64,000 nt of DNA from an uncultured Verrucomicrobiae bacterium (lineage in GTDB: Bacteria > Verrucomicrobiota > Verrucomicrobiia > Limisphaerales > Palsa-1400), in NCBI GenBank assembly GCA_963702845.1, contig OY969763.1:534719-598718 (forward strand). Reading direction: 5' to 3'. A model generated the notes under the pieces. That model was not told where the DNA came from and searched no databases. It was given only the letters and a program-made list of their open reading frames with translations. Below, in pieces: positions 1,131 to 18,853 of this stretch (position 1 is its first letter; each line of letters begins with the position of its first letter). A program made the translations under genes and the position numbers.

Positions 1131-2235
1131 ATGCAGTTAGGTCCGCTTCAGCTTAAATCGAATCTTTTTCTGTCGCCTTTGGCCGGTTATACCAACCTGC
1201 CATTCCGGCTGACTTTGCGGGAAGTTGGCGGCCTGGACCTTTGTCACGACGGACCTCGTTAACGCGCGATCTTTGTTGGAAAAGAATCCGAAAGCTTTGA
1301 AGCTGATCGAAACGTCTCCAGCCGACCGTCCGCTTGCAGTGCAATTGTTCGGGTCCGTTCCAGAAGAAATGCGTGACGCCGCCGCTTACCTCGAGTCCAT
1401 CGGCATCTCCTCTGTCGACATCAACATGGGTTGTCCCGTTCGCAAAGTCTGCAAAGTCGGCGGCGGTTCGGCGATGATGACCGAGATGGATAAGACGGCG
1501 GCGCTGGTCAGGGGAATGGTTGATGTCGTTAAAATCCCAGTTACAGCAAAGATGCGACTTGGTTGGGACGACCAAAACCTGACTGCGCCCGATCTGGCGC
1601 GCGTCCTGGAGGATGCTGGTGTCTCCGCCATTTTTGTTCATGGCCGAACGCGTGAACAAGGGTTCGGTGGCCGCGTCAATCTCGCGGGAATCCGCGCAGT
1701 TGTTAAGGCCGTGAAACGCATTCCAGTGATCGGCAATGGCGACGTGACGACTCCGCAGGCGGCGAAGATGATGTTCGATGAAACCGGCTGTGCTGCGGTG
1801 AGCATCGGCCGTGGCGCTTTCTACAATCCTTGGATTTTTCTTCACGCAGCTCACTACGTCAGCACCGGTGAGTTGTTACCAGAACCGAGCTTTAACGAAC
1901 GCGTGCGCGTCATGTGCCGGCATTTGGATTTGATGATCGAAGTGTTCGGTGAAACGCATGGTTGCCGGATGTTTCGCAAAGTGGGGCCGTGGTATTCGAA
2001 GCGATTTGGGCCCGCGAACGATTTCAACAAACGCATCGTTCAGCTTTCGACGAAAGCCGAATTTTACGAACTGCTGGAAAACTACCGACGTTGGCGCGCG
2101 CAGTTTGTTGACGAGAACGGCGACCTCCAAGCGCGCTACCAGCCGCCACCCATGGTTGCGTCTTTCATGCAGGAAGCCGGCGTGGCTCACAGGCAGGTCA
2201 TTCCCGTGCCGAAAGGTCCAGTCGAAGTTTGGTGA
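1131..2235 (+). CDS. dus: tRNA-dihydrouridine synthase (DusB-like), disrupted by an apparent +1 frameshift at a T-run near 1238-1241
   Basis: Frame 0 from ATG 1131 reads MQLGPLQLKSNLFLSPLAGYTNLPFRLTLREVGGLDL, the Dus N-terminal LAPMAG.TD..FR motif, then hits a stop. Frame +1 (track ORF 1225..2235) continues VTTDLVNA...PLAVQLFGS...NMGCP...IPVIGNGDV. Deleting one T in cttt-gtc restores LDLVTTDLV. Confidence 0.8.
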
Positions 2236-2684: not shown

Positions 2685-5510
2685 GTGGGTAGAATGACCC
2701 TCGCCCCTAAAGCCGTGATGCCAAGACAAACCATCGAGAAACAGCAGGATAAGGCACAACGGCATCCGGCGGTTCCGCTGTTTATCGCAGTTTTGGCTTC
2801 AATTCTGTTTGGCCCTTGGATGATTTGGGCCGATTCGGCCAGCACCAATCAGATCGGCCAAGGCGTTGTTTACATGCGTTTTACGTATAAAAACCTCTAC
2901 ACGTCGACCCAACAGGTTTATGTCGTTGACGTTAATCTGAACGATTCTTCTCCGTCGGTCCGCACTCCTTTTCGCACCGGCGGCGCAACGCGCACTGTCA
3001 GTCAACATGCCGCAACCGTTCCCGGAGCGGTCGCATGTGTTAATGGCGATTTTTTCTCCGGCACAGGTGGGACGCAATTTCTCAAAGTTAACGGCGTGAT
3101 CGTCAACGGAACACAATCGGGCGCGCAAGATCAGCAGGCACTTATTAATGACGGACTCGGCCCAAATAGTGCCAGTATCGTGAGCCGTCCGCCCATTACG
3201 GGCACATGGTCGAACCTGAACGTTTCCAATATCATTGCTTGCGGGCCGGGCTTGATTCAGGACGGAGTTCCGGTAACGCAGTGCGATGACGGAGGCAGTT
3301 TTTGTGGTCGTAATCCCCGCACCGCTGGCGCGTGGACATTTAATAATCACCTACTTCTGTTTGTCATTGATGGACGTTCTTCAGTTGCAGCCGGAATGAG
3401 CCTAGTTGAGTTGCGGGATTATATTGCTGCATTCGCGCCCGTCCGCCAGGCGGTTAACTTCGATGGCGGCGGATCGAGCACGATGTGGATTTCCAGTGGT
3501 GTGCAAAACGTTCCGTCCGATGGAATTCAGCGAGGGGTGGCGAACGCCATCGCGATCGCTGCGGCAGCGCCAGCGGTTCCGGCAACGCCAATTAACTTGG
3601 TCGCCGTTCTTAGGGGCGAAAACATTTTATTGGAATGGCCGGTTTCCTCGGGTGCGATGAGTTACACGATAAAACGCTCAACTACTAACGGCGGTCCTTA
3701 CGGCGTTATCGGTTCGTCAATTGATGCTCGGTTTACCGACACAAATATAGTTATCGGCAAAACTTACTACTACGTTGTTCGAGCCGTGAACCAACTCGGT
3801 CAAAGCGTTGATTCGACTTCCGTTAAAGTCGATACGTCGCAAGTCGCAGCGGCGCCAAATTATCCATACGCGGATACAGTGATTGGGTTGGGAGCTGTTG
3901 GCTATTGGCCTCTACAGGAAACGAATGTTCCGGCAAGTTTTGCGATGGAGACGAACCTTGGGACGTTGGGATTTGCGGGCGATGCCATTTACGCCGCGAC
4001 AAATTCCAGCGCCGTCACGTTCGGCATGGACAGCGCGCTCGCATCTGACAACGCCAACCGATCGGTGCTTTTTAATTCCGCAAGGATAGACAGCTACGCC
4101 TTTGTTCCGCGCACGACTCCGGCATTGACGATCAAGCCGCCGTTCTCGCTGGAATGTTGGGTTAACCCCTCGGCAACGGCTTCCACGCAAGACCTCATTT
4201 CGTTGGGCGGCTCGGGCAAAAACAGCCCGGCGGGTTCTGGCAATTATGCCGGGTTCAGATTGTCGTTTGGCGGCGGCGCATCGGACGGCCACACGTTGCA
4301 ATTCTTCGCTTATACCGGTAACGGCGTTGTGTACAATGTTGGGAGTACTAACATCCAAACCCCGGCTGAATCCGTTTCCGTTGGACAATGGCATCACTGT
4401 GTCGCGACCTACGACGGCACCACCGTCCTTTTGTATGTTGACGGCCAATTGCAGATGACCGGAAAAACTTCGATGGCGATCGACACGTGGTCGCCTCTGA
4501 CAATCGGCACGGGTCGCTGGCAAGGAAAACCGACCCGCGGTTATTGCGGCATGTTGGACGAAGTCGCCATTTATACAAACGTGCTCGGGTCGTCGGCCAT
4601 CATTGCTCATTACAACATCGCAACTAATGCCGGCGCATCTTATCGGGACACCATCTTAAGTCAGCATCCGCTGCTCTATTACCGAATGGATTGCGCGGGC
4701 TATGTCGCTCCTGACCTTGTCCTGAATCCGATTGCGCGCAACCTCGGCTCGTCCCAAATCAATGGATTTTATCAGCAAGGCTCTGAGGCCAGTGCGACGT
4801 CGGGGCCAGCATTGGTCGGATTTGGAACAAGCAGTTTATCCGTGGCTCTCAATGGCGTCTTCAGCTGTGTTAATGCAGGTTTTCATCCCGATTCCAATCC
4901 GACCGGCACTCAATCCTTCTCAATCGCCGCATGGTTCCAAACCTATCCCTCCGACGGCTCGGTGCAGACCATAATGAGCCATGGCACAAATTCGTGGAGT
5001 TTGAACCTCGATGGCACGACCGGCAAATTGGTGTGGAACTCCGGTGCTGGAAACGTCACATCGTCTTCCGTTTTGAACGACGGCGTTTGGCATCAGGTTG
5101 TCGCTGTCCATAATGCCTCGGTGAACATTCTTTATATAGATGGAACGCTTCGAAATTCAGCAGCGGCATCGGGCGCGGTTGTGGGCAATGTGGTTGACGA
5201 CGTTTTTATTGGCGGGGATCCAGAATTCCTCAACGTCACCGGTGGGGAGCGATTTTTCGCGGGCGCTGTCGCACAAGCTGCTTTTTTCACAAATGCGCTA
5301 ACCACTGCGCAGGTGCAACAGCTCTACGTTGCTGCCACGGTTCCAATGATCAGCAGCCAATTCTCCGGCGGCCAGTTCATTATCAATTATTCCGGCACGC
5401 TTCTTTCCTCGACAAATCTGACCGGCCCATACACCTCGGTCTCTGCCGCCACATCACCCTACGCGACAACTCCAACGGGCGCGCAGATGTTCTACCGAAC
5501 AAGCAACTGA
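2685..5510 (+). CDS. secreted multidomain protein: phosphodiester glycosidase (NAGPA-like, DUF2233) + fibronectin type III + two LamG/concanavalin-A-like lectin domains, ending in the FYR-type C-terminal tail
   Basis: N-terminal signal-anchor (FIAVLASILFGPWMIWA). VNGDFFSGTGG...GGGSSTMW is the phosphodiester glycosidase signature. An FN3 block follows (YTIKRSTTNGGPYGVIG...YYYVVRAVN). Two LamG-like blocks follow (CWVNPSA...WHHCVATYDGTTVLLYVDGQ and AAWFQT...WHQVVAVHNASVNILYIDG). The C-terminus is ...STNLTGPYTSV...MFYRTSN. Confidence 0.7.
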   Translation: MGRMTLAPKAVMPRQTIEKQQDKAQRHPAVPLFIAVLASILFGPWMIWADSASTNQIGQGVVYMRFTYKNLYTSTQQVYVVDVNLNDSSPSVRTPFRTGGATRTVSQHAATVPGAVACVNGDFFSGTGGTQFLKVNGVIVNGTQSGAQDQQALINDGLGPNSASIVSRPPITGTWSNLNVSNIIACGPGLIQDGVPVTQCDDGGSFCGRNPRTAGAWTFNNHLLLFVIDGRSSVAAGMSLVELRDYIAAFAPVRQAVNFDGGGSSTMWISSGVQNVPSDGIQRGVANAIAIAAAAPAVPATPINLVAVLRGENILLEWPVSSGAMSYTIKRSTTNGGPYGVIGSSIDARFTDTNIVIGKTYYYVVRAVNQLGQSVDSTSVKVDTSQVAAAPNYPYADTVIGLGAVGYWPLQETNVPASFAMETNLGTLGFAGDAIYAATNSSAVTFGMDSALASDNANRSVLFNSARIDSYAFVPRTTPALTIKPPFSLECWVNPSATASTQDLISLGGSGKNSPAGSGNYAGFRLSFGGGASDGHTLQFFAYTGNGVVYNVGSTNIQTPAESVSVGQWHHCVATYDGTTVLLYVDGQLQMTGKTSMAIDTWSPLTIGTGRWQGKPTRGYCGMLDEVAIYTNVLGSSAIIAHYNIATNAGASYRDTILSQHPLLYYRMDCAGYVAPDLVLNPIARNLGSSQINGFYQQGSEASATSGPALVGFGTSSLSVALNGVFSCVNAGFHPDSNPTGTQSFSIAAWFQTYPSDGSVQTIMSHGTNSWSLNLDGTTGKLVWNSGAGNVTSSSVLNDGVWHQVVAVHNASVNILYIDGTLRNSAAASGAVVGNVVDDVFIGGDPEFLNVTGGERFFAGAVAQAAFFTNALTTAQVQQLYVAATVPMISSQFSGGQFIINYSGTLLSSTNLTGPYTSVSAATSPYATTPTGAQMFYRTSN

Positions 5511-5513: not shown

Positions 5514-6662
5514 TCAGAGTAGTTTGCGAGGGGCCCCGAGAAGTTTGCGGGTATCCCCACCAACAGCGGTCTCCCAGTGGCCAAACCTGTCCGCGGGCAG
5601 TGGGGTGCCTTCAGCATAAACCAGGTAAACGGTATGGTGCGACGTTGACCAGGCGCGTTCTACGTCTGAGCGCTTATATATGTGGCGAACGTGTTGACCT
5701 TTTTGCAGGTTTGTCGCGGGGTCGTTGATCACGACGTCGCCGTTTTCGGTGAATCCGATGCAAACGACCAGGTGACCGTTGCCAGTGGCGTTGCGATCGG
5801 GCGCGAGCAGGTTGTATGGCGCTGAGATGATGACCGGTAGCCCCGCAACGATCCAATCCTCCAATTCGGAGATGCCGCTGAATCGGCTGACATAGGCGCG
5901 CATGCCGGGGAATTTTCCAGCCAATGCAGTGTTGAACGGCCAATTGCCGGTACCGCCAAAATTCGGATCGTAAATAGATGCGGCGACTTCAGGCACGTCG
6001 AGCGCCAACTCGGGCTGATCCAGGCGTTGGCTCCAGTGACCCAGCACCATGCTCAACGACGTCGGACTGCACCAACCTTTTTCTTGTGGATACGAGTTCT
6101 GCGATTTTTCCGGGACCGTTAAGATTTTGCCCCAAGCGGCGCGATTCGGCGGCAACGTGGCGACTTTTACGGTGGTGTCCAGAAACGAGAGCCCAATCGA
6201 CTTCAACTGAGGGGCCGCCTGGTTTGCCGCACCGTGGAGCGTGATGCGCACTTGCACTGCACCGGCCTTTTGGTTGAGTACCAACGTGTCAGATTTCACC
6301 TTCGCGTCGGCGTCGTTCTGTCCGGTGAGACTGGTGCGCTCGTGCTTCGCAGTGTCTTCGGACCAGATGCCCATGGTGTAGAATTTTGTTTTGTGACCTG
6401 GTTGCAGCGCTTGCACCTCCAGTTGAATCCAGGTGCCTGACGGCGTGACCGAGTTCCACGAGAGCACAAATTCGTTCCACGAAATCGGTGATTTGATGAT
6501 GGGCGACGTCAGCGTCGTTGCCTCGCCGGTTGTCGTCTGCGTAAAGTTGTTAAAATTTGTGAGGCCGAGAAACCGCGCCTGCTCTTCCGGACTTCCGCAA
6601 AAAGCGGACGTGATGAACGAGAGCAGACACGACAAGATGAGAACCGCCGGACGCAAATTCAT
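5514..6662 (-). CDS. secreted protein with C-terminal peptidase C39-like (papain-fold) domain
   Basis: Signal peptide MNLRPAVLILSCLLSFITSAFC. The C-terminal half (GWCSPTSLSMVLGHW...GNGHLVVCIGF...) resembles the Peptidase_C39_2 family. It sits 64 bp downstream of the giant gene on the same strand. Confidence 0.5.
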   Translation of the reverse strand: MNLRPAVLILSCLLSFITSAFCGSPEEQARFLGLTNFNNFTQTTTGEATTLTSPIIKSPISWNEFVLSWNSVTPSGTWIQLEVQALQPGHKTKFYTMGIWSEDTAKHERTSLTGQNDADAKVKSDTLVLNQKAGAVQVRITLHGAANQAAPQLKSIGLSFLDTTVKVATLPPNRAAWGKILTVPEKSQNSYPQEKGWCSPTSLSMVLGHWSQRLDQPELALDVPEVAASIYDPNFGGTGNWPFNTALAGKFPGMRAYVSRFSGISELEDWIVAGLPVIISAPYNLLAPDRNATGNGHLVVCIGFTENGDVVINDPATNLQKGQHVRHIYKRSDVERAWSTSHHTVYLVYAEGTPLPADRFGHWETAVGGDTRKLLGAPRKLL

Positions 6663-6726
6663 GGCGTATTGTAAACGGGAATTGCAGCAGAAGTGCGATA
6701 CTTTTTTGTGGTGCCGAATGGCGTGG

Positions 6727-9700
6727 CTATTTCGCGCTCAGATAGGCGATTAAATCGGCCATCGCCTGATGGCTTAAAGCTTTTTCCAATCCTTCTGGCA
6801 TCAGGGATAATCCAGAGCTGGTCAGCGATACGAGGTCGGTGCGAAGGACGGCTTCTTCGGTCCCGCCGGAGCTTTTAATTGTAATGCTGGTTGGGGTTTC
6901 GGCGGCGATGACGCCGGTCAGTTCGCGATCATTTTTCGTAACAGCCGTGTAGCTGAGATACCGTGACTCGATCGCCTGATTGGGATCCAGAATCGCCACG
7001 AGCAATGTCTGCACGGATTTGTTGCCGAGTGCGCCGAGGTCAGGACCAACCGCTTTGCCTTGCCCTTTGAAAAAATGGCAGGTGATGCAGTTTTGTTTAA
7101 ACAAGTTAGCACCACGCTTTGCGTCACCTTTCAGAGACGCGACGTCCTGATAGTCCTCCACCAATTTTTTGCGGTTCGGATTTGCAGAGGCAAAGATTTT
7201 TTTCGCCCGTGAAATTACTGTAGGTTGAACGTGCGTAAGCAATTTCTGTTGGAAGGCCGGCGCGATCTGGCCGGGAGGAATCGAACCCTTCTCAAGTCGA
7301 TCGAGCAATTGCTTGGTCCATCCGAGTCGCGACAGAATTGCGTTCATGATTTCGACACGTGTTTCGGGCAGATAACTTTTCCACCCATCCAACATAACGT
7401 CGGCGGTGAGAGGGATGCGACTGCGTCGGAGTGTAGCGAGTGCAATTTTTCGGGAGCCAGGAGCGCTCGTGCCGCTTAGAAATGAGCCAAGCAGTTTGAC
7501 ATCATCGCTCTGCGCCGAGAGCCCGCGGCCGAAGAGACGCAAGGCTGCCGTTTGATCCGCTTTATGTGAGGCCGGATTGCTGGCGATCAACCGCGCCTCG
7601 GCAAATAACGGCTCCAAACGCTCTGTCGTCATCTTGAGACTTGCTGGCGCGGACTCGTGAAACTTCTTCAACGAAATATTGCGGCGATCCAATGCATCGA
7701 GAAAACCCGCCAGCGCGGAAATCTGCCACGTTTCGATTTTGCCATTCACTGGTTGTGCGATTTTCACCAGCGCGGTTTCGAATGCTTTCGAATCGTCCAT
7801 GGCCGTGGCGAGGCCAACAAGTTGTTCGACGACGTTGCCTGGCGGTTTCGGCGCAGATAAAACCGTCGCCAGCATCTCTCCGACGTGATTGGTCGCTGAA
7901 CTCATCACTGCGATTTGGATTGGCTCGGATTTCGCATTGCGCAGGGCGATTTTTGCCAGGGCTTCTCCAGCGCGCGGGTTACTTGAGTAGCCGAGCGCAA
8001 ACGCAACCTGGTAGCGAACGCGTATGCTGGGATCATCGGCCAAGGCTAGCAGCGCCGTTTCCAATTCCTTGTTCGGCGCACCCGCGTTTTCGATTAGAAA
8101 CGAATCACACATGTGTGCAGCATGTTCGCGTATCGATGCGTACGGGTCTTTTAACGCGGCGGTCACAATCGTTGGGCTTAGCGCATGGAGTGCGCGCAAT
8201 GTGTAGAGCGTGTGAACGCGACCGCGCGTCGGCGCTTTTCCCACTCGACGCGTGATGCCGTTCCAGAACTCAGCTTGCTGACTTTGGATAAACTGCTTTT
8301 CGAGCAACTTAACGACGTTCGTATTCGCGCGCTCGGTCAACAAACGTTGCGCCGTGTCGCGCTGCCAGCCGTTCGGCGACTCCAGTTCGGCGCACAATTC
8401 AGCGTCCATCATTTTCTCCATGTTTGGAATGGGACGCAGTTTCGCTTTCACGGGATAGACGCGGTAAATGCGGCCTTTGTCGGCGCCAGCCCGCAAATCG
8501 TACTGCTTCTGAATTACGGACGGAATCCATTCCGGATGTTCGATGACGAGCCGATACATGTCGGCGACGTAGAGCGCGCCGTCGGGACCGGTCTTTATTT
8601 GCGTGGGTCGAAACCAATTGTCGCGCGACGTTAAAAATTCGCGATGAAGTTCGGTTTTCGCGCGGTGACTTTTGAACGTAACGCCATCGGCTTCGAGTTC
8701 CTCGCGGTGAACGAGATTATGAACCGGTTCGCTGATAAATACGCTATGTGGGAAGTCTGGCCCGAACAGTTCATCGCGGTACGGCGTCGGACTATTGCCT
8801 GACGTGAGATGATTCGCGCCGTTCGGATCGTTGAAGCGTTGCAGCGTTTTGCTCGTTGGATAAACGCGTGTGCCGTTGGTGTATTTCGCCAGTAGTTGAT
8901 ACGTCTGGCTGACGGATAAGTGCGGATTGCGCGTGAGATATTCGATCGGCAGGAAATAGTGCCACAGCATTGTCGCGTTGTTGTTGCCAAACCAATTGCC
9001 CCAGTCATCGCGGTGGCGTCCGAATTGTGTTTCGCCTGCTTGCGTTTCGAACTCGCCCATATCCGGATTTAAACGAAAATCGCGGCCGCCGATGTCGACT
9101 CCCTTTGGTAAATCATCAACTGATTTTTGAAGTCCGCCAATACTGCTAATGGATCCACCGCTGTCGCCGTTTGCCCCATAGAGCCAGCCATCCAAACCGT
9201 AATCGAAACCATTGGCGCGATGTTGTTGATTACCTTCGTTGAAACCAGTGAAGAGCGTCTTGCGAACGTCAGCTTCGCCGTCGCCGTCCGTGTCTTCCGC
9301 GTAAAAAATTTCCGGCGCGGCACTGACAATCACGCCTTTGCGCCATGGATAGATGCCATTCGGAAAATTCACGCCTTCGAGGAACACCGTGGATTTGTCG
9401 TAAATTCCATCGCCGTTCGTGTCCTCAAGGAATCGGATGATGCCGCCGGGTTTTCCTTTGCCGTCGATGCCGAGCGGGTAATCGCCCATTTCAACAACCC
9501 ACAGTTTTCCATCGGCACCCCACTCGAACGCGACTGGGCTTTTCGTCAGCGGTTCGCTCGCGACCAGTTCCACTTTGAAACCAGGGACGGGGCTCATGCA
9601 CGCGAGCGAGGCTTTTGGTGATTTTGGCTTTGGTTGGCCAAAGGTTATCAGGTCGTGAAACGAGTAACGACTGACGACCTGGTGAAGACCGGCGGAATCG

Positions 9701-11583
9701 CGAATCGGTTCCACTGGGACGTCTTCGTTCTGTATCCACATTTGGCCGTATTTGAACCACACGCCATTGTTTTGTCCGTTGCGCATGATCGGCGGGAGTT
9801 CATCATTTGCAGCTGCTGCCGGTGGCGGTGCGGGCTTTTTGGAATTACCATTTGCCGGTGCAACTTCGGTAGCTGGGGGGCGGCGGCGCGCCTGGACAAT
9901 TTCGCGCGTCCAGCCCACATCAAAACCAAGCGGGTCCTTCGCTGGGAAAAATGTGTAGATGGCGAAAGACTTTTCGTTCGAGAAAACGATGTCATCGTAG
10001 CCATCACCGTTGATGTCAACGAACCGCAATCCGGCATCCCGCGCCGTCTCATTAGCGATAGTGACACTTTGAGGGAGTGCGAATTTTCGCGGCGTCCACT
10101 GTTTTTGTTCCGGTGACCACGAGAAGATAACGTTTTGCTTTGGGTTGCTAATGATCAAGGAACAACGGCCGCTCCGATCGATATCGCGCAGTCGTGCGCC
10201 ACGGCCCATTCCATCTTTGCCCGTGTAGACAAGCTCATCCTTGATGCGTAGACCTTTCAGCAAGGATTCGTTTTTTACCCACGCCTTACCGTCGAAATCC
10301 CATCCGCCAGAGTCTCGGTCGTTTCGTACGATTGCGGAAGCGAAGCCGTTCGACTGCAACACTCCGAAGCGCACCGCCATATCCCGGTTACTGCCGAGAG
10401 GGTCTTTGGCGACGAGTGGGACCGGGAAAGTCGTTTCGGTCCACTTGCGTTCATCGTTATTCCAAATGCGAGTAATCCGCCTTTGCTCGTCGGCAATCAC
10501 CACATCCATGTAGCCATCGTTATTGACGTCGAGCACACGCACGCCGCTCTTCTGGCCGTTCGTCGCACGCAAAGGATGATTGGCCAACAAATTGCGGTTC
10601 AATCGTTGCAGCGCTTCGCGAAAGTTGAGGAACTTCACGCGTCGGCCGTATTTCTTGTCCGCGTAATCGATGAACTCAACCATCTGGGTGTTATCGATCC
10701 AGCCGTGCGGATGGAAAATGAAGTTGAACACGCCTTGTTTGAGGACGGTTGCGTCCAGCAGTGCTTCCCAATCGCGCACGGTATCAGGGTTCTTCGCGCC
10801 GTGGTAGTTCTGCGCTTCCCAGTCGCTCGGGACCGCGCCGGGAAATTCCCAGCACGACGTGCCGATCACGTATGGGTAAGGATAGTCCTCGACTGTGATG
10901 CCAAAATTGTCGAACGGAACGTATTTGCGGAATCGTTCGTTACCTTGCTCGTCAATCGTCAGTGAGCGCGGCAGGCTGGTGTCGTTCGTGGTCGTGATGT
11001 TCATGACCGACGAGTCGATGGCGAGGAAATTTCCGCCGGGCGTGTTGCGATTGAAAATTTCCGCATAAAACCGCGGACTCGAGCTATTCATCGAATCGCA
11101 ACACGGCATCCGAAACGCCACCGGTTTAACTCCCGGAATTTTGTTGAGCAGATCGGTGCAGCCATGAACGGTTTTTTCGGCGGCGGTGAAATTGCTGTGG
11201 CTTAGAAGCGGGCAGGGGTGGGCGAGCGTATGAACTTCGATGGAGAGCCCTTCTTTGAGCCACGCCTGTAGCTGCGGATCTTTCGCGCTGGCGTTGCAAG
11301 TCATGATGCTGACCGGTGCGCGCCCATCGATTTGTTTCAAGCGGTTAAGGATGGGACGCAGAAACGTTTCATAACCGGCTGTTTCCTTCATGTCGTCGAT
11401 GGCGAGGACAACGACCGCGTCAATGTTGGAATCACCAACCCATTGCGGGGTGGTTAGTTTTGGGAAATTGACGTGCGGATAGAACGGGTCGGTCGTGTCC
11501 ATGTAGGCAAGCCGATTGGCATCCGTTGCGAATAAACGCACACAGCTTGCGACCAGCAGGAGCGCGGCAAAAACCCGGTTCAT
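6727..11583 (-). CDS. giant (1618 aa) secreted mosaic protein: polysaccharide deacetylase-like + FG-GAP/VCBS repeats + PVC-type membrane-bound dehydrogenase beta-propeller domain + HEAT repeats + C-terminal CxxCH heme-binding domain
   Basis: Single intact 4857-nt ORF with a signal peptide. AVVVLAIDDM and IEVHTLAHP resemble the NodB deacetylase motifs. DVNNDGYMDVVIA and VDINGDGYDDIVFSN are FG-GAP-like, followed by a Pro/Ala linker. PVAFEWGADGKLWVVEMGDYP matches the Pirellula/Verrucomicrobium dehydrogenase domain family. A long HEAT-like alpha-solenoid follows. The C-terminus is CITCH...GPDLG...LMP, a cytochrome c-type heme-binding domain. Domain calls are from motif recognition only. Confidence 0.8.
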   Translation of the reverse strand: MNRVFAALLLVASCVRLFATDANRLAYMDTTDPFYPHVNFPKLTTPQWVGDSNIDAVVVLAIDDMKETAGYETFLRPILNRLKQIDGRAPVSIMTCNASAKDPQLQAWLKEGLSIEVHTLAHPCPLLSHSNFTAAEKTVHGCTDLLNKIPGVKPVAFRMPCCDSMNSSSPRFYAEIFNRNTPGGNFLAIDSSVMNITTTNDTSLPRSLTIDEQGNERFRKYVPFDNFGITVEDYPYPYVIGTSCWEFPGAVPSDWEAQNYHGAKNPDTVRDWEALLDATVLKQGVFNFIFHPHGWIDNTQMVEFIDYADKKYGRRVKFLNFREALQRLNRNLLANHPLRATNGQKSGVRVLDVNNDGYMDVVIADEQRRITRIWNNDERKWTETTFPVPLVAKDPLGSNRDMAVRFGVLQSNGFASAIVRNDRDSGGWDFDGKAWVKNESLLKGLRIKDELVYTGKDGMGRGARLRDIDRSGRCSLIISNPKQNVIFSWSPEQKQWTPRKFALPQSVTIANETARDAGLRFVDINGDGYDDIVFSNEKSFAIYTFFPAKDPLGFDVGWTREIVQARRRPPATEVAPANGNSKKPAPPPAAAANDELPPIMRNGQNNGVWFKYGQMWIQNEDVPVEPIRDSAGLHQVVSRYSFHDLITFGQPKPKSPKASLACMSPVPGFKVELVASEPLTKSPVAFEWGADGKLWVVEMGDYPLGIDGKGKPGGIIRFLEDTNGDGIYDKSTVFLEGVNFPNGIYPWRKGVIVSAAPEIFYAEDTDGDGEADVRKTLFTGFNEGNQQHRANGFDYGLDGWLYGANGDSGGSISSIGGLQKSVDDLPKGVDIGGRDFRLNPDMGEFETQAGETQFGRHRDDWGNWFGNNNATMLWHYFLPIEYLTRNPHLSVSQTYQLLAKYTNGTRVYPTSKTLQRFNDPNGANHLTSGNSPTPYRDELFGPDFPHSVFISEPVHNLVHREELEADGVTFKSHRAKTELHREFLTSRDNWFRPTQIKTGPDGALYVADMYRLVIEHPEWIPSVIQKQYDLRAGADKGRIYRVYPVKAKLRPIPNMEKMMDAELCAELESPNGWQRDTAQRLLTERANTNVVKLLEKQFIQSQQAEFWNGITRRVGKAPTRGRVHTLYTLRALHALSPTIVTAALKDPYASIREHAAHMCDSFLIENAGAPNKELETALLALADDPSIRVRYQVAFALGYSSNPRAGEALAKIALRNAKSEPIQIAVMSSATNHVGEMLATVLSAPKPPGNVVEQLVGLATAMDDSKAFETALVKIAQPVNGKIETWQISALAGFLDALDRRNISLKKFHESAPASLKMTTERLEPLFAEARLIASNPASHKADQTAALRLFGRGLSAQSDDVKLLGSFLSGTSAPGSRKIALATLRRSRIPLTADVMLDGWKSYLPETRVEIMNAILSRLGWTKQLLDRLEKGSIPPGQIAPAFQQKLLTHVQPTVISRAKKIFASANPNRKKLVEDYQDVASLKGDAKRGANLFKQNCITCHFFKGQGKAVGPDLGALGNKSVQTLLVAILDPNQAIESRYLSYTAVTKNDRELTGVIAAETPTSITIKSSGGTEEAVLRTDLVSLTSSGLSLMPEGLEKALSHQAMADLIAYLSAK

Positions 11584-12120
11584 TGAATAGGACGAGTGAA
11601 GCGACGCGGGGCAGGGAATGCAAATGTTTTCGCCTTAACAAAAACGGAGCAATTACGCCGTCCATCGCAACAAAATACAGCTTCAAACGTTGGCCTTGCA
11701 ACCCGCACTCCGGAAAAGTTCCCGGAATGTTGCTACAACCAGCTACTAGTCACTACAACTTGCAACCCGTAGTAACTTTCAACCAGCTACTTTGCAACTG
11801 AGGGAGTTTAAAACTTGAGAATTTTTCATCGAATTTTCGCAGGATTTGATGCGGGTCTGGATTTGGAAACCGTTGATGTGCGCTGATTTGTGTTAATCAG
11901 AGGGCGTTCGAGGGGGGTGGTTGTTTAAACCGCAACTACCCGAAACTCTCCGCAACACTGAATTTTGACCTCGTAGCAAATCCCGCTCGGACAACGACTT
12001 AGTGCGAATTACGAAATTGGGCGAAATTCGGACAATTTAGGGGAATTCCGCACGATTCCGTACCTTTTCGCATCATTTTTCCTTTTCTGATGCACTTTTG
12101 ATTTTCAAAGACCAAACGAA

Positions 12121-12248
12121 GTTTGGATCCAATTCCAAGCTCTGGGCCAGCCAACGGGGGCTGATTGCTTATCAATGTATAGTAACGTTACTACTTGTCA
12201 ACGCTGTCGGTTTTGCTGTTTGGGTTTGTGGCAAAACGATAAATGGAA
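12121..12248 (+). repeat. copy 1 of a ~130-bp intergenic direct repeat (about 85 % identical to 16533..16657)
   Basis: Aligns to the second copy with a few substitutions/indels, both in the same orientation: accaaacgaagttYggatccaattcMaag...ggggctgattgcttat...aacgttactacttgtc...gttttgg/ctgtttgggtttgtgg. Confidence 0.7.
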
Positions 12249-12318
12249 ATGTAAAGGACTGACCCTGCGAGCGTAGGGACAAAGAATTGAGGGTGGGGGG
12301 TGCAGTTGCTGCCAGAAA

Positions 12319-15300
12319 TTATGGCAGGCGTATTCGGTAGAAGCGTGTCGAATAGTTTGTCCACTGCGGGTCGGTGTAAAAGGAGATGTTTCCGGAAAGT
12401 GTGTTGGTAGAGACAGGTGTCCAATCGGTCAGGTTGGTGGTGGCTTCGACCACTGCGACAAGATTGCTGCTGCCGATCATGTTAAATCCAAATTGGTTGG
12501 CTTGTAGGCCGAAGGTGCTGTCGGCGAGTTGAATCATTAAACCGTTCCATAACACGACGGGAAGGCCGTCGAGAGTTGAGCCCCATCCTGTGGTCCCCGA
12601 GAAGTAATAGACCGTTGCCGGCTGGGTTTGGGCAAATGCGTTTGGATCCACTCCAGGTGCGTTGCCTTGAAAAATGACGTTGCGGAGGTTGGGGCACAAT
12701 TCGAAGACGTCGTTGGAGATGCCGGTGATTTTTGGGCCGAGGATTATGGTATTGAGATCCGAACAGGAAGCAAAGGCATAGCTGGCCAGGGTAGTGACGT
12801 TTGCGCCGAGAATAATGCTGGTCACGTGTGTGCCGGCGAATGAGTAGGTGGCGATGGTGTTGACGGTGTCTGGAACTCTGTAGCTACCCCTAAGACCTGT
12901 TGGGGAACTGGATCAGGGTGGTTTGGTTTTTGTTGAACAGAACGCCGCCCAGACTGCTGAACGTTAAATTTTGGGGCGACACCGAGATAGAGGTAAGGGT
13001 GTCGCATCCGGCAAGGGCTTGTGAGCCGATTGTATTTACATTGGTCCCGATATTAATGCTCGTGAGGTTTGGAGAATCGTAGAAAGCATCGAGCAAAATG
13101 CTGGTGACTGTGGCGGGAACGGTGTAACTGCCGGCGAGGCCGGGAGGATATTCGACGAGAGTCGTTTGGCTTTTGTTGAAGAGGACGCCGTTGAGGCTGC
13201 TGTAATTGGGGTTGAGTGAGTTGACGGTTATCGCCGTGAGATTGGTGCAGCCGAAAAACACGGGATTGAGGATGCTGGTTACGTTTTGGGGGAGGCTGAT
13301 ATTTGTAAGGCTTGTGCATTGGTCAAATGCGCCGGTCTTGATGGTGGTCAGCCCCGTGCCAAGGGCGACACTGGCGAGGTTGGAGCATGAATTAAAAGCG
13401 TAGTTGCCGATCGTTGCGATGCTGTTTGGAAGGGTGATGGAAGTCAGGGCCGTGCAATGATCGAAGCTGCCGCCAGTGCTGGTAAGCCCCGGGGTAAAGG
13501 TGACGTTGATCAGGTTGGAACAATAACCAAATGATTCGTCGCCGAAGGTGGTTATTTTGGGTGGGATAATGACGTTAGTGAGGCCGCCGCAACGGTAAAA
13601 TGCATTCATTCCCATGGTAGTCACGTTGGTGCTGAGGACGAGATTGGTCATGGCGAAGCACTGGTCGAAGGCGTAGTTGCCAATGCTGGTGATGGAATTG
13701 GGCATAACTACACTGGTGAGATTGGTGCAATTTTCAAAAGCGTTATCGCCAATCGACGTTATGCCGTTCGAGAGAGTGACGCTGACCAGAGCAGGACAAT
13801 TGTTAAAGGCGGATGCTCCGATTGAAGTGATTTTGCCGGGAATGACAATATTGGTCAGACTTTGGCATTGCGTGAAGCTGCTAGCGGCGATTGAGGTGAC
13901 GTTGGTTCCAATGGTGACGTTGGCGAGGCTGATGCAATTTGCAAACGCAGCACCGAGGGTCGTGACTGTATTCGGGATCGTGATAGCTGTCAGGTTGCTG
14001 CAACTCGAAAAGGCGGACGCGCCAATGTTCAGAATGCCATCCGCCAAGGCAACGGAATTCAAGGAACCGCACCCCTGGAAGGCAGAGGCTCCAATGACTT
14101 TGACGCTTCCAGGGATTGCAACGCCAGTCAACTGATAGCAGTTCATAAACGCCTGGGTTCCAATATTGGTAACACTGCCCGGAATGCTGACGGACGTTAA
14201 GCTCGTGCAATTGCGAAAGGCACTGTTACCGATATTGGTGACGCTATTCGGGAGAACGATGCTGCTGAGGCTCGAACAACCGGAGAAAGCGGAGGTGTTG
14301 ATAACGGGAACTTTGTTGCCGATCGTGACACTTGAAAGACTGGTGCAGTTGAGGAATGCGCTGCTGCCGAGATTGGTGACGGTGTTTGGGATGCTGACGG
14401 CCAGACTTGAGCAATTCTGAAATGCGGCAACTCCGATGCTCGCGACCGTTGCCGGGAGCGTCATATTGGTCAAGTCGGTGCAGCCTTCGAACGCTGTCGC
14501 GGCGATATTAGTAAGGCCAATTGGCAAAGAGATGCTTCCGAGGCTTGAGCAATTTTGAAACGTGGAGGTCGCGATGTTTTTGACGTTCGCAGGAAGAGTG
14601 AGGCTGGCGAGTGTTGCGCAACCTTGAAAGGCGGTGGTGCCGATGGTGGTGACGGTGACGGGAATGCTCACGTTATTAAGGTCAGTGCAATCTTGAAATG
14701 CGGTGTTTCCGATGTTGGTAGCAATTGAAGGAAGAATGACGTTGGTGAGGCTAGTGCAACCATAACAGAGAAAGTTGCCAACGTTCTTCATCGAGCCGGG
14801 CAATTTATCGAGGCGAGGCTGGAACAATCCTGAAATGTTCTGTCGCCGATTGAAACGACAGTGGTCGGGATGCTGATCGAGATCAGGTTTGCGCACCCGT
14901 CAAAGGCGGCAGTGGCGATATTGGTGACATGCGCTGGAATAAAAACGGAAACGAGATTGGAACAGTTGCCGAACAGGCTGGATCCGATGCTGGCCAGGTT
15001 GGTGCTGAGAGACGCGTTTGTCAGACTGAGCAACTTAGGAACACACTGACACCAAGGTTGGTGACAGCATCGGGAAGAATGATGCTTGGAAGGTTCGTGC
15101 AGTCGGCAAAGGTGTCGTCACCGATTGAGGTAACATTGGGCGGAATAGTGATGTTGGTGAGGTCGAGCAACCAGAGAATGCGTAGTAACCAATCGATTTG
15201 ACGCCGAGAGGAATGTTGACGGTGCTGAGACTGACGCACCCTTGAAAGGAGTAGTTCGGAAGAGTGGTGATGGCAGTTCCCAGATAAGCGTTTGTTAAAG

Positions 15301-15717
15301 AATTACATCCGTTAAAAACTCCGACGCCGAAATTGGTGACAGTATCGGGCACGGAAACAGCACTCAAGTAGAAGCAGCCATAAAAAGCGCTATCACCTAT
15401 AGTCTTTAACCCAGATCCCAGATTTATATTGGTCAGGTAAATATTTTGGTCGAACGCTCCCGCGCCGAGGTTTGTGACGCTGTTCGGGATGGTGACATCG
15501 TTGAAGGAGTTGTTGTGCTGAAATGCACTGTCCGCGATGCTGGTGACGGAAGGGCCGTGATGGTGTCCGGGATGTTGACCGTCCCGCCTGGACCAGAATA
15601 GCCCGTAATGGTAATCGTTCCGTTGTTTGTGGTGTAGTTGAATTGCGCCTGACCGGACGATGGCATTATCGCGACAAATACAAAAGATAACCGCAATAAG
15701 GTGAGGATGGTTTTCAT
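12319..15717 (-). pseudogene. BspA-type leucine-rich-repeat (LRR_5) surface protein, broken into at least 6 frames; carries the FYR-type C-terminal tail
   Basis: Consecutive minus-strand ORFs (15433..15801, 15035..15367, 15021..15239, 14788..15033, 12890..14896, 12319..12825) all encode the ~23-aa BspA-like unit (IPNSVTSIGNYAF..C.SLTSV.L). The N-terminus is MKTILTLLRLSFVFVAIMP, a signal peptide. The C-terminus is ...EATTNLTDWTPVSTNTL...RFYRIRLP. Frame breaks may be sequencing or assembly errors in this highly repetitive gene. Confidence 0.7.
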
Positions 15718-15811
15718 CAATTGCGCTGCGCGCCTAGGTTCACAAGTCACCTGGGCCTGCCTCGATTTGGTAGACAGGTTGTGTCTGAGTGCGCATGACA
15801 CATTGGGATTA

Positions 15812-15925
15812 TTAGTTTAGTTGCGTTTCAAAGTCTACAGGCGATTGGTAACCGAGGGCGCTGTGGAGCCGCCTGCGGTTATAAAAAATCTCCAATCCAT
15901 TCCTGTCCCCCAATTCGAGGCAAGT
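15812..15925 (-). mobile_element. short C-terminal remnant of an IS3-family transposase (integrase-core tail)
   Basis: The ORF 15812..16057 ends ...LEIFYNRRRLHSALGYQSPVDFETQLN*, the characteristic IS3 OrfB C-terminus (..FYNxxRxHSxLGYxSPxxFE). The upstream part of the ORF is not transposase-like, so only a ~35-aa relic remains. Confidence 0.45.
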
Positions 15926-16109
15926 CCAAGGCAAATTCTTATCAGTGCAGCCGAGCAGAACGACAGTGTAATGGTGAAACCATGTCGAGGCGGCGAACCA
16001 CTGGATGGCGCGGGCAGCTTCCTTCTTTGCTGAGAGAAATTTCAGGGCACTCCGCATTGCGGGCGTTGTATCTCCGTCGTTATGTATACAACGTAAACCG
16101 AAGGAAATT

Positions 16110-16394
16110 ATGAAGATTCAAATGATGATTGTTACGGTGGCTCTTGGGCTGATGGTTGGTTGCGCTTCCAACAACGTTAATGAACCTGCAGGAGCGCAGG
16201 CCATGGGGACACGTTTCAGCGAGCTTCCGCTGGCAGTGCAACACACAATCCGGACACAAAATCCCACGGGCCAAATTGCTGACATCGACAAGGAGAGGCG
16301 TTCAGGCCGCGTCATTTATGAAGTTCAATTCGCTGAACCAGGGCTAAATCCAAGACTGCATATCGCGGAGGATGGCACTTTGTTGATGAAATAA
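16110..16394 (+). CDS. small lipoprotein (PepSY-like?)
   Basis: MKIQMMIVTVALGLMVGC has a lipobox, followed by an ~75-aa domain (RFSELPLAVQHTIRTQ...GRVIYEVQF...). A GC hairpin ATTGGCCGCT-N7-AGCGGCCAAT lies downstream at 16430..16456. Confidence 0.45.
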   Translation: MKIQMMIVTVALGLMVGCASNNVNEPAGAQAMGTRFSELPLAVQHTIRTQNPTGQIADIDKERRSGRVIYEVQFAEPGLNPRLHIAEDGTLLMK

Positions 16395-16532
16395 AGTGCT
16401 CAAATTTTAACAGCACATGCGACGACTAGATTGGCCGCTTATTAAGAGCGGCCAATCCGGGGGTAGTTTTCAAACCGAAAGCGGAACGTCTGGCCCGCAT
16501 CCCAAACTCTTCGTAACACCGAACTTCGGCCG

Positions 16533-16657
16533 CACAACAATACCAAACGAAGTTCGGATCCAATTCAAAGTCCCGGTCCCAAAGGGGGCTGATTGCTTAT
16601 TATTGTATTCTAACGTTACTACTTGTCTTCGTCATCGTTTTGGTTTTGGGTTTGTGG
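16533..16657 (+). repeat. copy 2 of the ~130-bp direct repeat (see 12121..12248)
   Basis: Same alignment as copy 1. It lies between the lipoprotein gene and the transglutaminase-like gene. Confidence 0.7.
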
Positions 16658-16760
16658 AAAAAGTTGGGATTGACACCAAGATTTTCTATTCTTTTCGGAC
16701 GGATGATTGATTGAACATGCTGGATTCTAAATTCCAGATTGATACGTTTGTCGCGATAAA

Positions 16761-18762: not shown

Positions 18763-18767
18763 ATTGG

Positions 18768-18801
18768 AACCCGCAAACGAGGGCACCTGCGGGTTTGTTT
18801 G
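18768..18801 (+). terminator. rho-independent terminator candidate after the transglutaminase-like gene
   Basis: AACCCGCA-N12-TGCGGGTT forms an 8-bp stem followed by TGTTTG, starting 6 nt after the stop codon. Confidence 0.45.
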
Positions 18802-18853
18802 AGACACTAAACCGCTTGCTCACGCGCGCGGCTCTGATGTTAAGTTACAGCGC

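What the first reader, a model, noticed from the sequence alone, without database searches (positions are those of the whole stretch)
5514..11583. 1618-aa fusion of a carbohydrate-esterase-like domain, FG-GAP repeats and the PVC dehydrogenase/HEAT/CxxCH heme-binding architecture, followed by a C39-like peptidase gene
The dehydrogenase-propeller + HEAT + C-terminal CxxCH arrangement is a recognised, uncharacterised PVC family. Here it is extended N-terminally by a NodB-like polysaccharide-deacetylase domain and FG-GAP/VCBS repeats separated by a Pro/Ala linker, giving a single 4.9-kb ORF with no frameshift. A gene for a secreted papain-fold (C39-like) peptidase follows 64 bp downstream on the same strand. 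This suggests a heme-dependent extracellular glycan-modifying machine, possibly protease-processed. Two exact TTGCAACCCG 10-mers 70 bp apart (11694, 11764) and a third TTGCAAC (11802) lie in its upstream region.
Basis: partly seen in the sequence, partly recalled or inferred. Interest (0 to 1): 0.55.

Follow-up and report, generated by a model that had tools for sequence, protein, structure and literature searches.

The report
Conserved verrucomicrobial deacetylase–propeller–haem giant protein
The 1618-residue gene is real and its domains are as described, but it is one ordinary member of a large, uncharacterised protein family of Verrucomicrobiota, and the peptidase gene next to it is a neighbour only in close relatives, not a conserved partner.

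Summary
Both ORFs exist exactly as stated: 6727-11583 (-), 1618 aa, and 5514-6662 (-), 382 aa, 64 bp apart. Every domain call holds: CE4 deacetylase, FG-GAP repeats, DUF7133/TIGR02604 propeller, HEAT solenoid, TIGR02603 cytochrome c, and a C39-like peptidase.

The "fusion" is not special to this genome. More than 120 protein clusters and at least 503 metagenome stretches encode relatives, and 80 retrieved loci have the same ~1600-aa architecture at 43-84% identity.

The peptidase link fails. A C39 gene follows only in three close relatives (72% identity or more). It is absent from 0 of 80 metagenome loci and 4 of 4 other distant orthologue contexts, and 2 of 2 distant C39 orthologues lie elsewhere. 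No flanking gene family recurs in more than 8 of 85 loci.

Best reading: a self-contained, exported glycan deacetylase plus quinohaemoprotein-like sugar oxidoreductase. This is inferred, not shown. The upstream 10-mers are real but only partly kept in the closest locus compared and absent from two others.

The parts
6727..11583 (-). Gene for the 1618-aa multidomain protein (PVC-type haem-binding CxxCH family with an N-terminal CE4 + FG-GAP module)
   Evidence: ORF. Domains. Full-length orthologues.
11524..11583 (-). Sec signal peptide, about residues 1-20. Cleavage is probably RLFA/TDANRL, just before the conserved mature N-terminus DANRLTYLD
   Evidence: N-termini of 118 orthologues. A lipobox-like motif occurs in only 14 of 118, so a lipoprotein anchor is not a family feature. 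The cleavage site is inferred.
10579..11496 (-). CE4 / NodB-type polysaccharide-deacetylase domain, about residues 30-335. Motifs: D63-D64, H118-T-x-x-H122, R158-x-P160, D271-W272, H291-P-H293
   Evidence: Pfam, 28.9 bits. phmmer alignment to PdaC 6h8l covers motifs 1-3. AF2 model pLDDT 90.3. Foldseek top hits are CE4 deacetylases 3rxz, 3s6o, 5zns, 5jmu, 6h8l and 2c1g. Residues are invariant in 72 metagenome orthologues.
9889..10566 (-). FG-GAP/VCBS beta-propeller-like region, about residues 340-565, with three DxNxDGxxD calcium-loop motifs (D352-D360, D467-G472, D523-D531)
   Evidence: Pfam FG-GAP_3 47 bits and FG-GAP 27.8 bits on the excised region. Foldseek hits to the Tc-toxin propeller 6suf_F and the GlcNAc-binding lectins 4tqj and 2bwm. 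D352, D356, D360, D523 and D531 are 73/73.
9790..9888 (-). Pro/Ala-rich linker, about residues 566-598, longer here than in the orthologue consensus
   Evidence: Sequence. pLDDT below 60. Consensus.
8449..9621 (-). DUF7133 / TIGR02604 six-bladed beta-propeller, residues 655-1045. Invariant H788, R858, R992, E1015, H1016
7144..8421 (-). HEAT/ARM alpha-solenoid, about residues 1055-1480
   Evidence: Pfam HEAT_2 24.6 bits, below cut-off. All-helical repeats in the model. Foldseek hits to importin-alpha, CAND1 and the PP2A-A subunit.
6730..7128 (-). C-terminal mono-haem cytochrome c domain (TIGR02603): C1499-x-x-C1502-H1503 with M1595 as the likely axial ligand
   Evidence: NCBIfam 118.8 bits. phmmer and Foldseek hit the Kuenenia dihaem cytochrome Kustd1711 (7zs0), about 25% identity. 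C, C and H are 73/73 and M is 71/73.
5514..6662 (-). Neighbouring gene for an exported C39-like (papain-fold) protein. C198, H297 and D314 are conserved. Linked to the large gene only in close relatives
   Evidence: Pfam 74.6 bits. Conservation of at least 95% in 118 homologues. Linkage tests.
11594..11633 (-). 40-nt element immediately upstream of the ATG (GCGAAAACATTTGCATTCCCTGCCCCGCGTCGCTTCACTC), largely conserved in all four close loci
   Evidence: Alignment A3. Its function as a promoter or translation-initiation region is not tested.
11695..11798 (+). Cluster of short direct repeats: CTTGCAACCCG x2 (11695, 11759), CAACCAGCTACT x2 (11736, 11780) and a third TTGCAAC (11792)
   Evidence: One CGGGTTGCAA copy is deleted in L003, and the region is not alignable in L002 or L004.
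12174..12201 (-). Sigma-70-like promoter TTGACA-16-TACATT carrying the 14-bp palindrome TAGTAACGTTACTA. It marks the start of a ~640-bp conserved leader
   Evidence: Window versus L003 is 81% identical over 647 nt. It is a consensus match only; function is not shown.

Best explanation
The large gene encodes a self-contained enzyme that is exported across the inner membrane and probably works in the periplasm. It is conserved as a stand-alone gene across Verrucomicrobiota.

Proposed mechanism:
1. The N-terminal module forms one rigid unit: a metal-dependent CE4 deacetylase packed against a calcium-binding, lectin-like FG-GAP domain. It binds an acetylated glycan, most plausibly one rich in amino sugars, and removes acetyl groups.
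2. The C-terminal module works like a quinohaemoprotein sugar dehydrogenase. A six-bladed propeller of the soluble-glucose-dehydrogenase / AA12 type oxidises a sugar.
3. Electrons pass to the covalently bound haem c, which the HEAT solenoid holds in place, and from there to a periplasmic acceptor.

Shown: the domain architecture, the folds, and the conservation of the three putative active centres. Inferred: cofactor, substrate, direction of electron flow and cellular location.

The adjacent C39-like gene is a synteny neighbour within one genus- or family-level clade. It is not part of the system.
For: - Architecture and thresholds.
- Orthology: more than 120 full-length clusters at 51-84% identity; at least 503 metagenome stretches encoding relatives, of which 80 retrieved loci hold full-length orthologues at 43-57% identity.
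- The N-terminal module occurs in 1207 cluster representatives, both fused and as apparently stand-alone proteins of about 580-690 aa. This is the pattern expected of an autonomous unit recruited by fusion.
- CE4: motifs 1-3 align to PdaC; fold hits are CE4 enzymes; D63, D64, H118, R158 and H291 are 73/73 and H122 is 72/73.
- N-terminal model pTM is 0.90, indicating a fixed CE4/FG-GAP arrangement.
- H788 sits in a motif with the same spacing as the catalytic His144 motif of sGDH: H, +8 G, +10 D, +14 Y, +18 G, +19 D. This was read against the 1c9u sequence verified.
- H788, R858, R992, E1015 and H1016 are 73/73.
- Haem: CxxCH is 73/73 and Met is 71/73.
- No conserved neighbour: the most recurrent flanking family is present in 8 of 85 loci.
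Against: - No sequence-level link to PQQ dehydrogenases was found. There is no PF07995 hit, no PDB hit with a propeller profile, and hhalign against sGDH aligns only 20 columns at 5% probability.
- The only biochemical datum for the TIGR02604 family is beta-galactosidase activity of the 109-kDa core-only protein Lac161_ORF7 (PMC5342196), not dehydrogenase activity.
- PQQ supply in the host is unknown.
- Motif 3 of CE4 reads R-M-P-C-C rather than R-x-P-Y.
- No substrate clue comes from gene context.
Confidence: 0.5

Rival explanations
1. The propeller is a glycoside hydrolase, a 'beta-propeller-type GH' like the beta-galactosidase Lac161_ORF7. The protein would then be a deacetylase plus glycosidase, with the haem domain serving a sensing, structural or unrelated redox role.
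For: - Purified Lac161_ORF7 (TIGR02604 + HEAT + cytochrome c, 109 kDa) released glucose from lactose, with Km 1.8 mM (PMC5342196).
- Later genome papers treat TIGR02604 proteins as putative glycoside hydrolases (PMC7397252, PMC5352709).
Against: - The top structural neighbours are PQQ dehydrogenases, not glycosidases.
- A strictly conserved, covalently bound haem c with its Met ligand has no obvious role in hydrolysis.
- The published activity rests on one coupled glucose-oxidase/peroxidase assay of one protein that lacks the N-terminal module.
- I could not compare that sequence directly with this one.
Confidence: 0.2
2. One reading: the large protein and the C39-like peptidase form one system, in which the peptidase processes or matures the secreted multidomain enzyme.
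For: - Same strand, 64-bp gap, and no terminator-like site in the gap.
- The pair is kept in L001, L003 and L004 although the gap grows to about 530-830 bp.
- The peptidase has a signal peptide and a conserved Cys/His/Asp.
Against: - 0 of 80 metagenome loci with full-length orthologues have a C39 homologue in their flanks; 62 of the 85 loci examined have at least 1.5 kb downstream.
- 4 of 4 distant orthologue contexts lack it.
- C39 orthologues at 58-61% identity sit between a thioesterase gene and a HAD-like hydrolase gene, with no PVC protein within 10 kb.
- The pair lies inside a larger syntenic block (PDH-E1 / EVE / big gene / C39 / Dus) shared by the close relatives, so common descent explains the adjacency.
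Confidence: 0.05
3. The propeller is a lactonase or another SMP30/NHL-type hydrolase, or a non-catalytic binding module. The haem domain would then act independently as an electron carrier tethered to a glycan-binding scaffold.
For: - Foldseek's best propeller hit is luciferin-regenerating enzyme.
- No cofactor-binding signature could be established by sequence.
Against: - The His-containing blade motif matches the sGDH spacing.
- Fusion of such a propeller to a cytochrome has a direct functional precedent in quinohaemoprotein pyranose dehydrogenase (PMC4332668, PMC6881789).
Confidence: 0.15

Closest known systems
PVC-type haem-binding CxxCH proteins (NCBIfam TIGR02604 'Piru_Ver_Nterm' + TIGR02603; Pfam DUF7133)
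   Same: Both family models are matched far above their cut-offs. The order is the same: propeller, HEAT, then C-terminal CxxCH. The source is a Limisphaerales/Verrucomicrobiota genome, and NCBI already names cluster mates this way.
   Different: It carries an additional ~650-aa N-terminal CE4 + FG-GAP module that the ~1000-aa core-only members, such as Lac161_ORF7, lack. That extended form is itself common.
Lac161_ORF7 (GenBank AGW45552), a metagenomic beta-galactosidase from a Chthoniobacter-like verrucomicrobium (PMC5342196)
   Same: Same three-domain core, TIGR02604 + HEAT_2 + cytochrome c with CxxCH. It is the only family member with published biochemistry.
   Different: It is 109 kDa and has no CE4 or FG-GAP module. 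Its reported activity is hydrolytic.
PQQ-dependent soluble glucose/pyranose dehydrogenases, including the quinohaemoprotein CcPDH of Coprinopsis cinerea (CAZy AA12 + AA8 cytochrome + CBM1)
   Different: - No detectable sequence-profile similarity.
- The cytochrome is c-type and C-terminal, rather than b-type and N-terminal.
- A ~430-aa HEAT solenoid lies between the propeller and the haem domain.
- The targeting module is an enzyme (CE4) plus FG-GAP, not a CBM.
CE4 carbohydrate esterases (NodB-homology deacetylases such as PdaC, SpPgdA and chitin deacetylases)
   Same: Pfam hit above threshold, matching fold, and the Asp-Asp / His-x-x-x-His / Arg-x-Pro / His motifs.
   Different: - Divergent: 10-18% identity and target-normalised TM 0.45-0.70.
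- Larger, at about 300 aa.
- Motif 3 is R-M-P-C-C, with two invariant cysteines plus C124.
- It is always embedded in the CE4 + FG-GAP module.
Peptidase_C39_2 (PF13529) family, YvpB-like C39-like proteins (the neighbouring gene)
   Same: Pfam 74.6 bits, with the papain-like Cys198/His297/Asp314 conserved. Some sources name its relatives 'YvpB'.
   Different: It is not fused to an ABC transporter as classical bacteriocin-processing C39 domains are. It has a conserved ~160-aa N-terminal domain of unknown fold. It scores far below the PA2778 equivalog (17.5 versus 150 bits).

Membership tests
PVC-type haem-binding CxxCH protein (TIGR02604/TIGR02603) | N-terminal 'membrane-bound dehydrogenase-like' propeller domain matching TIGR02604 / DUF7133 above cut-off | tested here: met
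   TIGR02604 286.6 bits (cut-off 122.2); PF23500 499.6 bits (cut-off 27).
PVC-type haem-binding CxxCH protein (TIGR02604/TIGR02603) | C-terminal putative haem-binding domain TIGR02603 with a CxxCH motif | tested here: met
   118.8 bits (cut-off 68.15). C1499-I-T-C1502-H1503 is invariant and M1595 is 71/73.
PVC-type haem-binding CxxCH protein (TIGR02604/TIGR02603) | HEAT-repeat region between the propeller and the haem domain | tested here: met
   HEAT_2 scores 24.6 bits, just under the cut-off. However, the AF2 model shows a ~430-aa alpha-solenoid with importin/CAND1/PP2A-A fold hits.
PVC-type haem-binding CxxCH protein (TIGR02604/TIGR02603) | Haem actually bound covalently | not testable with these tools
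   Needs haem staining or mass spectrometry of expressed protein.
CE4 carbohydrate esterase (NodB homology domain) | Pfam PF01522 match at or above the gathering score | tested here: met
   28.9 bits versus 23.1. In many orthologues the hit is at or below threshold, so the domain is divergent.
CE4 carbohydrate esterase (NodB homology domain) | Motif 1 (T)FDD: catalytic base plus metal ligand | tested here: met
   A-I-D63-D64 aligns with T-F-D-D of PdaC. 73/73 conserved.
CE4 carbohydrate esterase (NodB homology domain) | Motif 2 H(S/T)xxH: two metal-binding histidines | tested here: met
   H118-T-L-A-H122 aligns with H-S-W-S-H of PdaC. 73/73 and 72/73.
CE4 carbohydrate esterase (NodB homology domain) | Motif 3 RxPY | tested here: inconclusive
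   R158-M-P160-C161-C162. Arg and Pro are invariant, and Tyr is replaced by an invariant Cys-Cys.
CE4 carbohydrate esterase (NodB homology domain) | Motifs 4 and 5: DxxD(W/Y) and the catalytic-acid His in LxH | tested here: inconclusive
   D271-W272 (71/73 and 60/73) and H291 (73/73) are placed as expected, but no residue-level structural superposition was possible.
CE4 carbohydrate esterase (NodB homology domain) | Distorted (beta/alpha) barrel fold | tested here: met
   Foldseek probability 1.00 to 3rxz, 3s6o, 5zns, 5jmu, 6h8l, 2c1g and 2cc0.
CE4 carbohydrate esterase (NodB homology domain) | Deacetylase activity | not testable with these tools
   Needs an enzyme assay.
FG-GAP / VCBS integrin-like propeller | FG-GAP repeat matches with DxDxDG calcium loops | tested here: met
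   FG-GAP_3 47 bits and FG-GAP 27.8 bits on the excised region. There are three loops, with invariant Asp residues.
FG-GAP / VCBS integrin-like propeller | Complete seven-bladed propeller | tested here: inconclusive
   About 225 aa, enough for roughly four blades, plus a short beta segment after the linker. Model coordinates could not be inspected.
Soluble PQQ-dependent sugar dehydrogenases (Pfam GSDH PF07995 / CAZy AA12) | Six-bladed propeller fold closest to sGDH/AA12 | tested here: met
Soluble PQQ-dependent sugar dehydrogenases (Pfam GSDH PF07995 / CAZy AA12) | Sequence-profile membership | tested here: not met
   No PF07995 hit even at E of 10 or less. A propeller profile finds no PDB relative. 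hhalign to sGDH gives 5% probability. It is therefore not filed as a member, only as 'works like'.
Soluble PQQ-dependent sugar dehydrogenases (Pfam GSDH PF07995 / CAZy AA12) | Catalytic His and PQQ-binding Arg residues | tested here: inconclusive
   H788 and R858 lie in motifs spaced like sGDH H144 and H227-R228 and are 73/73. The correspondence is my manual reading, not a significant alignment.
Soluble PQQ-dependent sugar dehydrogenases (Pfam GSDH PF07995 / CAZy AA12) | PQQ and Ca2+ bound | not testable with these tools
   Needs reconstitution or a structure.
Peptidase_C39_2 (neighbouring gene) | PF13529 match with a conserved Cys/His dyad | tested here: met
   74.6 bits (cut-off 24). C198, H297 and D314 are at least 95% conserved in 118 homologues.
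Two-gene system 'PVC protein + C39 peptidase' (as proposed) | Conserved genomic co-occurrence | tested here: not met
   0 of 80 metagenome loci, 4 of 4 distant orthologues and 2 of 2 reciprocal contexts. It is present only in L001, L003 and L004.

The most novel reading that the evidence does not exclude
The family is a bacterial all-in-one counterpart of fungal quinohaemoprotein pyranose dehydrogenase. In this reading a periplasmic enzyme first de-N-acetylates an amino-sugar polymer (chitin, peptidoglycan or host/algal glycan fragments) through its CE4/FG-GAP module. It then oxidises the exposed sugar on an sGDH-like propeller. Electrons pass through its own haem c to the respiratory chain or to an oxidative polysaccharide-cleaving partner. 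That would make it a new CAZy-type auxiliary-activity family, widespread in soil, freshwater and marine Verrucomicrobiota.
Probability: 0.25. Interest if true: 0.6.

Novelty: new member of a known kind. Interest (0 to 1): 0.3.

Why it matters
The gene itself is an ordinary orthologue. It belongs, however, to a very large protein family of about 1600 aa that is strongly conserved, found in hundreds of loci and present across soil, freshwater and marine Verrucomicrobiota. No member with this architecture has been studied.

The only biochemistry on the core module (a beta-galactosidase) conflicts with what its fold and its strictly conserved haem suggest (a dehydrogenase). Resolving that conflict would assign a function to a paralogue-rich family: 18-20 copies are reported in single planctomycete genomes (PMC7397252, PMC5352709). 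It could also define a new carbohydrate-active redox enzyme class.

Showing that the peptidase link is only local synteny prevents a wrong operon annotation.

Tried and rejected
- Genome-collection scan with the single protein. An alignment query would have been better, so I made up for it with the metagenome scan.
- Sequence searches of the propeller against solved structures, with a single sequence and with a 13-sequence profile. No meaningful hit.
- Pfam at E of 10 or less for a GSDH match. None.
- hhalign of the propeller profile against sGDH. Only 20 columns aligned, at 5% probability, so sequence homology to PQQ dehydrogenases is not established.
- Lipoprotein anchoring ('membrane-bound'). 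The V-A-S-C motif in this protein is not conserved (14 of 118). Rejected as a family feature.
- NAGPA/Laminin-G gene at 2685-5510 as a partner. It is absent from all related loci searched (tblastn). Rejected.
- Rfam on the window and on the upstream region. Only one tRNA-Pro, at 42458.
- Exact searches for the upstream repeat motifs in related loci. No matches.
- A 25-codon ORF in the leader. It is frameshifted in L003, so it is probably not coding.
- All-against-all clustering of 953 flanking ORFs from 85 loci. No conserved neighbour emerged.

Full report
**1. What is in the sequence**

The two ORFs are as described: 6727..11583 (-), 1618 aa, and 5514..6662 (-), 382 aa, separated by 64 bp.

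Pfam finds five domains in the large protein:
- Polysacc_deac_1 (56-161; 28.9 bits, cut-off 23.1)
- two FG-GAP_3 repeats (38.2 bits)
- DUF7133 (655-1045; 499.6 bits)
- HEAT_2 (24.6 bits, just below cut-off)
- Cytochrom_C (1488-1616)

NCBIfam places the protein in the "PVC-type heme-binding CxxCH protein" family. TIGR02604 scores 286.6 bits and TIGR02603 scores 118.8 bits, both far above their cut-offs. The small protein is a Peptidase_C39_2 member (74.6 bits).

The window comes from a 6.03-Mb contig. NCBI labels the protein's 90%-identity cluster mates as Limisphaerales or Verrucomicrobiales MAG proteins.

**2. The "fusion" is a widespread orthologous group, not a local event**

- The protein search returned at least 120 clusters covering 99-100% of the query at 51-84% identity. 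All are about 1560-1790 aa, and sources name them "putative membrane-bound dehydrogenase-like", "VCBS repeat-containing" or "PVC-type heme-binding CxxCH protein".
- A metagenome scan found at least 503 stretches encoding relatives. It returned 80 loci with full-length orthologues at 43-57% identity.
- The N-terminal 650 aa alone matches 1207 representatives of 50%-identity clusters. Most are about 1550-1790 aa. Some are apparently complete stand-alone proteins of about 580-690 aa. A few are 2044-2225 aa.
- Several long forms carry a neutral-ceramidase-like domain between FG-GAP and DUF7133.

The CE4 + FG-GAP unit therefore behaves as an autonomous module that was recruited to the PVC core.

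**3. Anatomy and conservation**

*Export.* Orthologue N-termini are ordinary Sec signal peptides followed by a conserved mature start, DANRLTYLD. The lipobox-like V-A-S-C in this protein is not conserved (14 of 118).

*N-terminal model (1-650).* Mean pLDDT is 90.3 and pTM is 0.90. Its best solved-structure matches are CE4 deacetylases: 3rxz, 3s6o, insect chitin deacetylase 5zns, 5jmu, PdaC 6h8l and SpPgdA 2c1g. For the FG-GAP part the matches are a Tc-toxin propeller and the GlcNAc-binding fungal lectins AAL2 and PVL.

*CE4 motifs.* phmmer aligns motifs 1-3 with PdaC: AIDD with TFDD, HTLAH with HSWSH, and FRMPC with VRPPY.

*C-terminal model (639-1618).* Mean pLDDT is 89. It shows a six-bladed propeller, a ~430-aa alpha-solenoid and a cytochrome c domain similar to Kuenenia Kustd1711 (about 25% identity).

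*Conservation in 72 independently retrieved metagenome orthologues, 45-57% identical:*

| Centre | Residues | Conservation (query plus 72) |
|---|---|---|
| CE4 | D63, D64, H118, R158, H291 | 73/73 |
| CE4 | H122 | 72/73 |
| FG-GAP calcium loops | D352, D356, D360, D523, D531 | 73/73 |
| FG-GAP calcium loops | D527 | 72/73 |
| Propeller | H788, R858, R992, E1015, H1016 | 73/73 |
| Haem | C1499, C1502, H1503 | 73/73 |
| Haem | M1595 | 71/73 |

All three putative active centres are therefore under strong constraint.

**4. How far the dehydrogenase reading goes**

I verified a recalled sGDH sequence against PDB 1c9u; it was identical. H788 lies in a blade motif with the same spacing as the catalytic His144 motif (H, +8 G, +10 D, +14 Y, +18 G, +19 D). 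H857-R858-D-D-W-G parallels H227-R228-N-P-Q-G.

This is my manual reading. Objective sequence methods do not establish homology:
- no PF07995 hit
- no PDB hit with a propeller profile
- hhalign probability of 5% over 20 columns

I therefore claim "works like", based on fold and architecture, and not membership.

The architectural precedent is the fungal quinohaemoprotein pyranose dehydrogenase, which combines a cytochrome, a PQQ propeller and a carbohydrate-binding module (PMC4332668, PMC6881789).

Against this stands the only biochemistry on the TIGR02604 family. Lac161_ORF7 is a 109-kDa core-only protein from a Chthoniobacter-like clone. It released glucose from lactose (Km 1.8 mM) in a coupled glucose-oxidase assay (PMC5342196). 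Later genome papers list the family as putative beta-propeller glycoside hydrolases. I keep this as the main rival.

**5. The peptidase link**

A C39 orthologue lies downstream on the same strand in three close relatives:

| Locus | Identity of large protein | C39 orthologue | Gap |
|---|---|---|---|
| L001 | 81% | 82% identical | about 40 bp (ORF coordinates) |
| L003 | 84% | 81% identical | about 530 bp |
| L004 | 72% | 55% identical over residues 6-132, cut by the contig end | about 830 bp |

These loci also share the surrounding block PDH-E1 / EVE / big gene / C39 / Dus, so common descent explains the adjacency.

Beyond this clade the link disappears:
- 4 of 4 orthologue contexts at 53-59% identity lack it.
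- 0 of 80 metagenome loci have a C39 homologue in their flanks; 62 of the 85 loci examined have at least 1.5 kb downstream.
- C39 orthologues at 58-61% identity sit between a 4HBT thioesterase gene and a HAD-like hydrolase gene, with no PVC protein within 10 kb.
- Clustering 953 flanking ORFs from 85 loci found no family present in more than 8 loci.

The peptidase itself looks functional: C198, H297 and D314 are at least 95% conserved. It belongs to a large family of its own, with 2610 hits.

**6. Upstream region**

The 10-mers are at 11696 and 11760, 64 bp apart, and a third TTGCAAC is at 11792. They form a composite direct repeat with CAACCAGCTACT, which occurs twice. One copy is deleted in L003, and the region is not alignable in L002 or L004. 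The repeats are real and partly kept only in the closest locus compared.

Two other features are more notable:
- A 40-nt element directly before the ATG (11594-11633) is largely conserved in all four close loci.
- The whole ~640-bp intergenic leader is 81% identical to L003, as conserved as the coding DNA (79.5%). It starts exactly at a sigma-70-like promoter (12174-12201) whose spacer holds a perfect 14-bp palindrome.

There is no Rfam match. The predicted RNA fold has a z-score of -2.4.

**7. Verdict**

- The domain interpretation is supported.
- The uniqueness of the fusion and the protease coupling are not supported.
- The protein is a new member of a known, annotated but functionally unresolved family.
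- Best mechanism (confidence about 0.5): an exported CE4 deacetylase with an FG-GAP glycan-binding module, joined to a quinohaemoprotein-like sugar oxidoreductase.
- Interest is modest for this locus. The family as a whole deserves biochemical work.

Noticed in passing
window 11584-12318 (- strand); second copy at 16539-16662: The ~640-bp leader upstream of the large gene is 81% identical to the orthologous locus L003, as conserved as the coding DNA. It begins at a sigma-70-like promoter whose spacer holds the perfect palindrome TAGTAACGTTACTA. The promoter plus the first ~100 nt recur, 81% identical over 129 nt, at 16539-16662 upstream of small ORFs and LRR genes. There is no Rfam match, and the fold z-score is -2.4.
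   Followed up: partly
window 1131-2232, 18854-19253, 19549-22166, 22195-23474, 28255-29217: Several housekeeping genes (Dus, EVE-domain protein, pyruvate dehydrogenase E1 and E2) match their orthologues in two or more reading frames, and no single long ORF exists for E1. A sulfatase ORF at 28255-29217 covers only the C-terminal part of its Pfam profile. This suggests indel errors in a long-read assembly, or pseudogenes. The 4.9-kb ORF of the finding is nevertheless intact.
   Followed up: partly
window 51018-52433 (+) and 52445-54382 (+); related loci L006, L065, L070, L079; proteins P0287, P0313, P0337, P0359, P0321: A neutral-ceramidase-like domain is inserted between FG-GAP and DUF7133 in some long family members. 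It is also encoded within 10 kb of the orthologue in 4 of 85 loci. The window has its own weak ceramidase-like ORF (PF04734, E 1.5e-4, below cut-off) followed 12 bp later by a 645-aa cytochrome c protein with several cytochrome c family matches. This hints at a recurrent ceramidase-like/cytochrome association.
   Followed up: partly
window 12319-19400: A block of lower G+C (0.49-0.51) with strong GC skew (up to 0.28) sits between the large gene and the EVE/PDH genes. It carries BspA-type leucine-rich-repeat genes (12890-14896, plus a fragment at 12319-12825) and a transglutaminase-like ORF (17458-18309). In relatives L003 and L004 the EVE and PDH genes lie closer upstream, which suggests an insertion here.
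   Followed up: no
window 2685-5510 (+): A 941-aa protein with a NAGPA phosphodiester-glycosidase domain and two Laminin_G_3 domains converges on the C39 gene; its stop codon lies 4 bp from the C39 stop codon. It has no counterpart in any related locus searched, and in L003 the C39 gene is followed directly by Dus. It is therefore another likely insertion.
   Followed up: partly
L005 14758-17511: In one distant orthologue locus a 917-aa ORF overlaps the stop codon of the large gene by 4 nt. It has only a weak GH20b-like hit and is not found in other loci.
   Followed up: no
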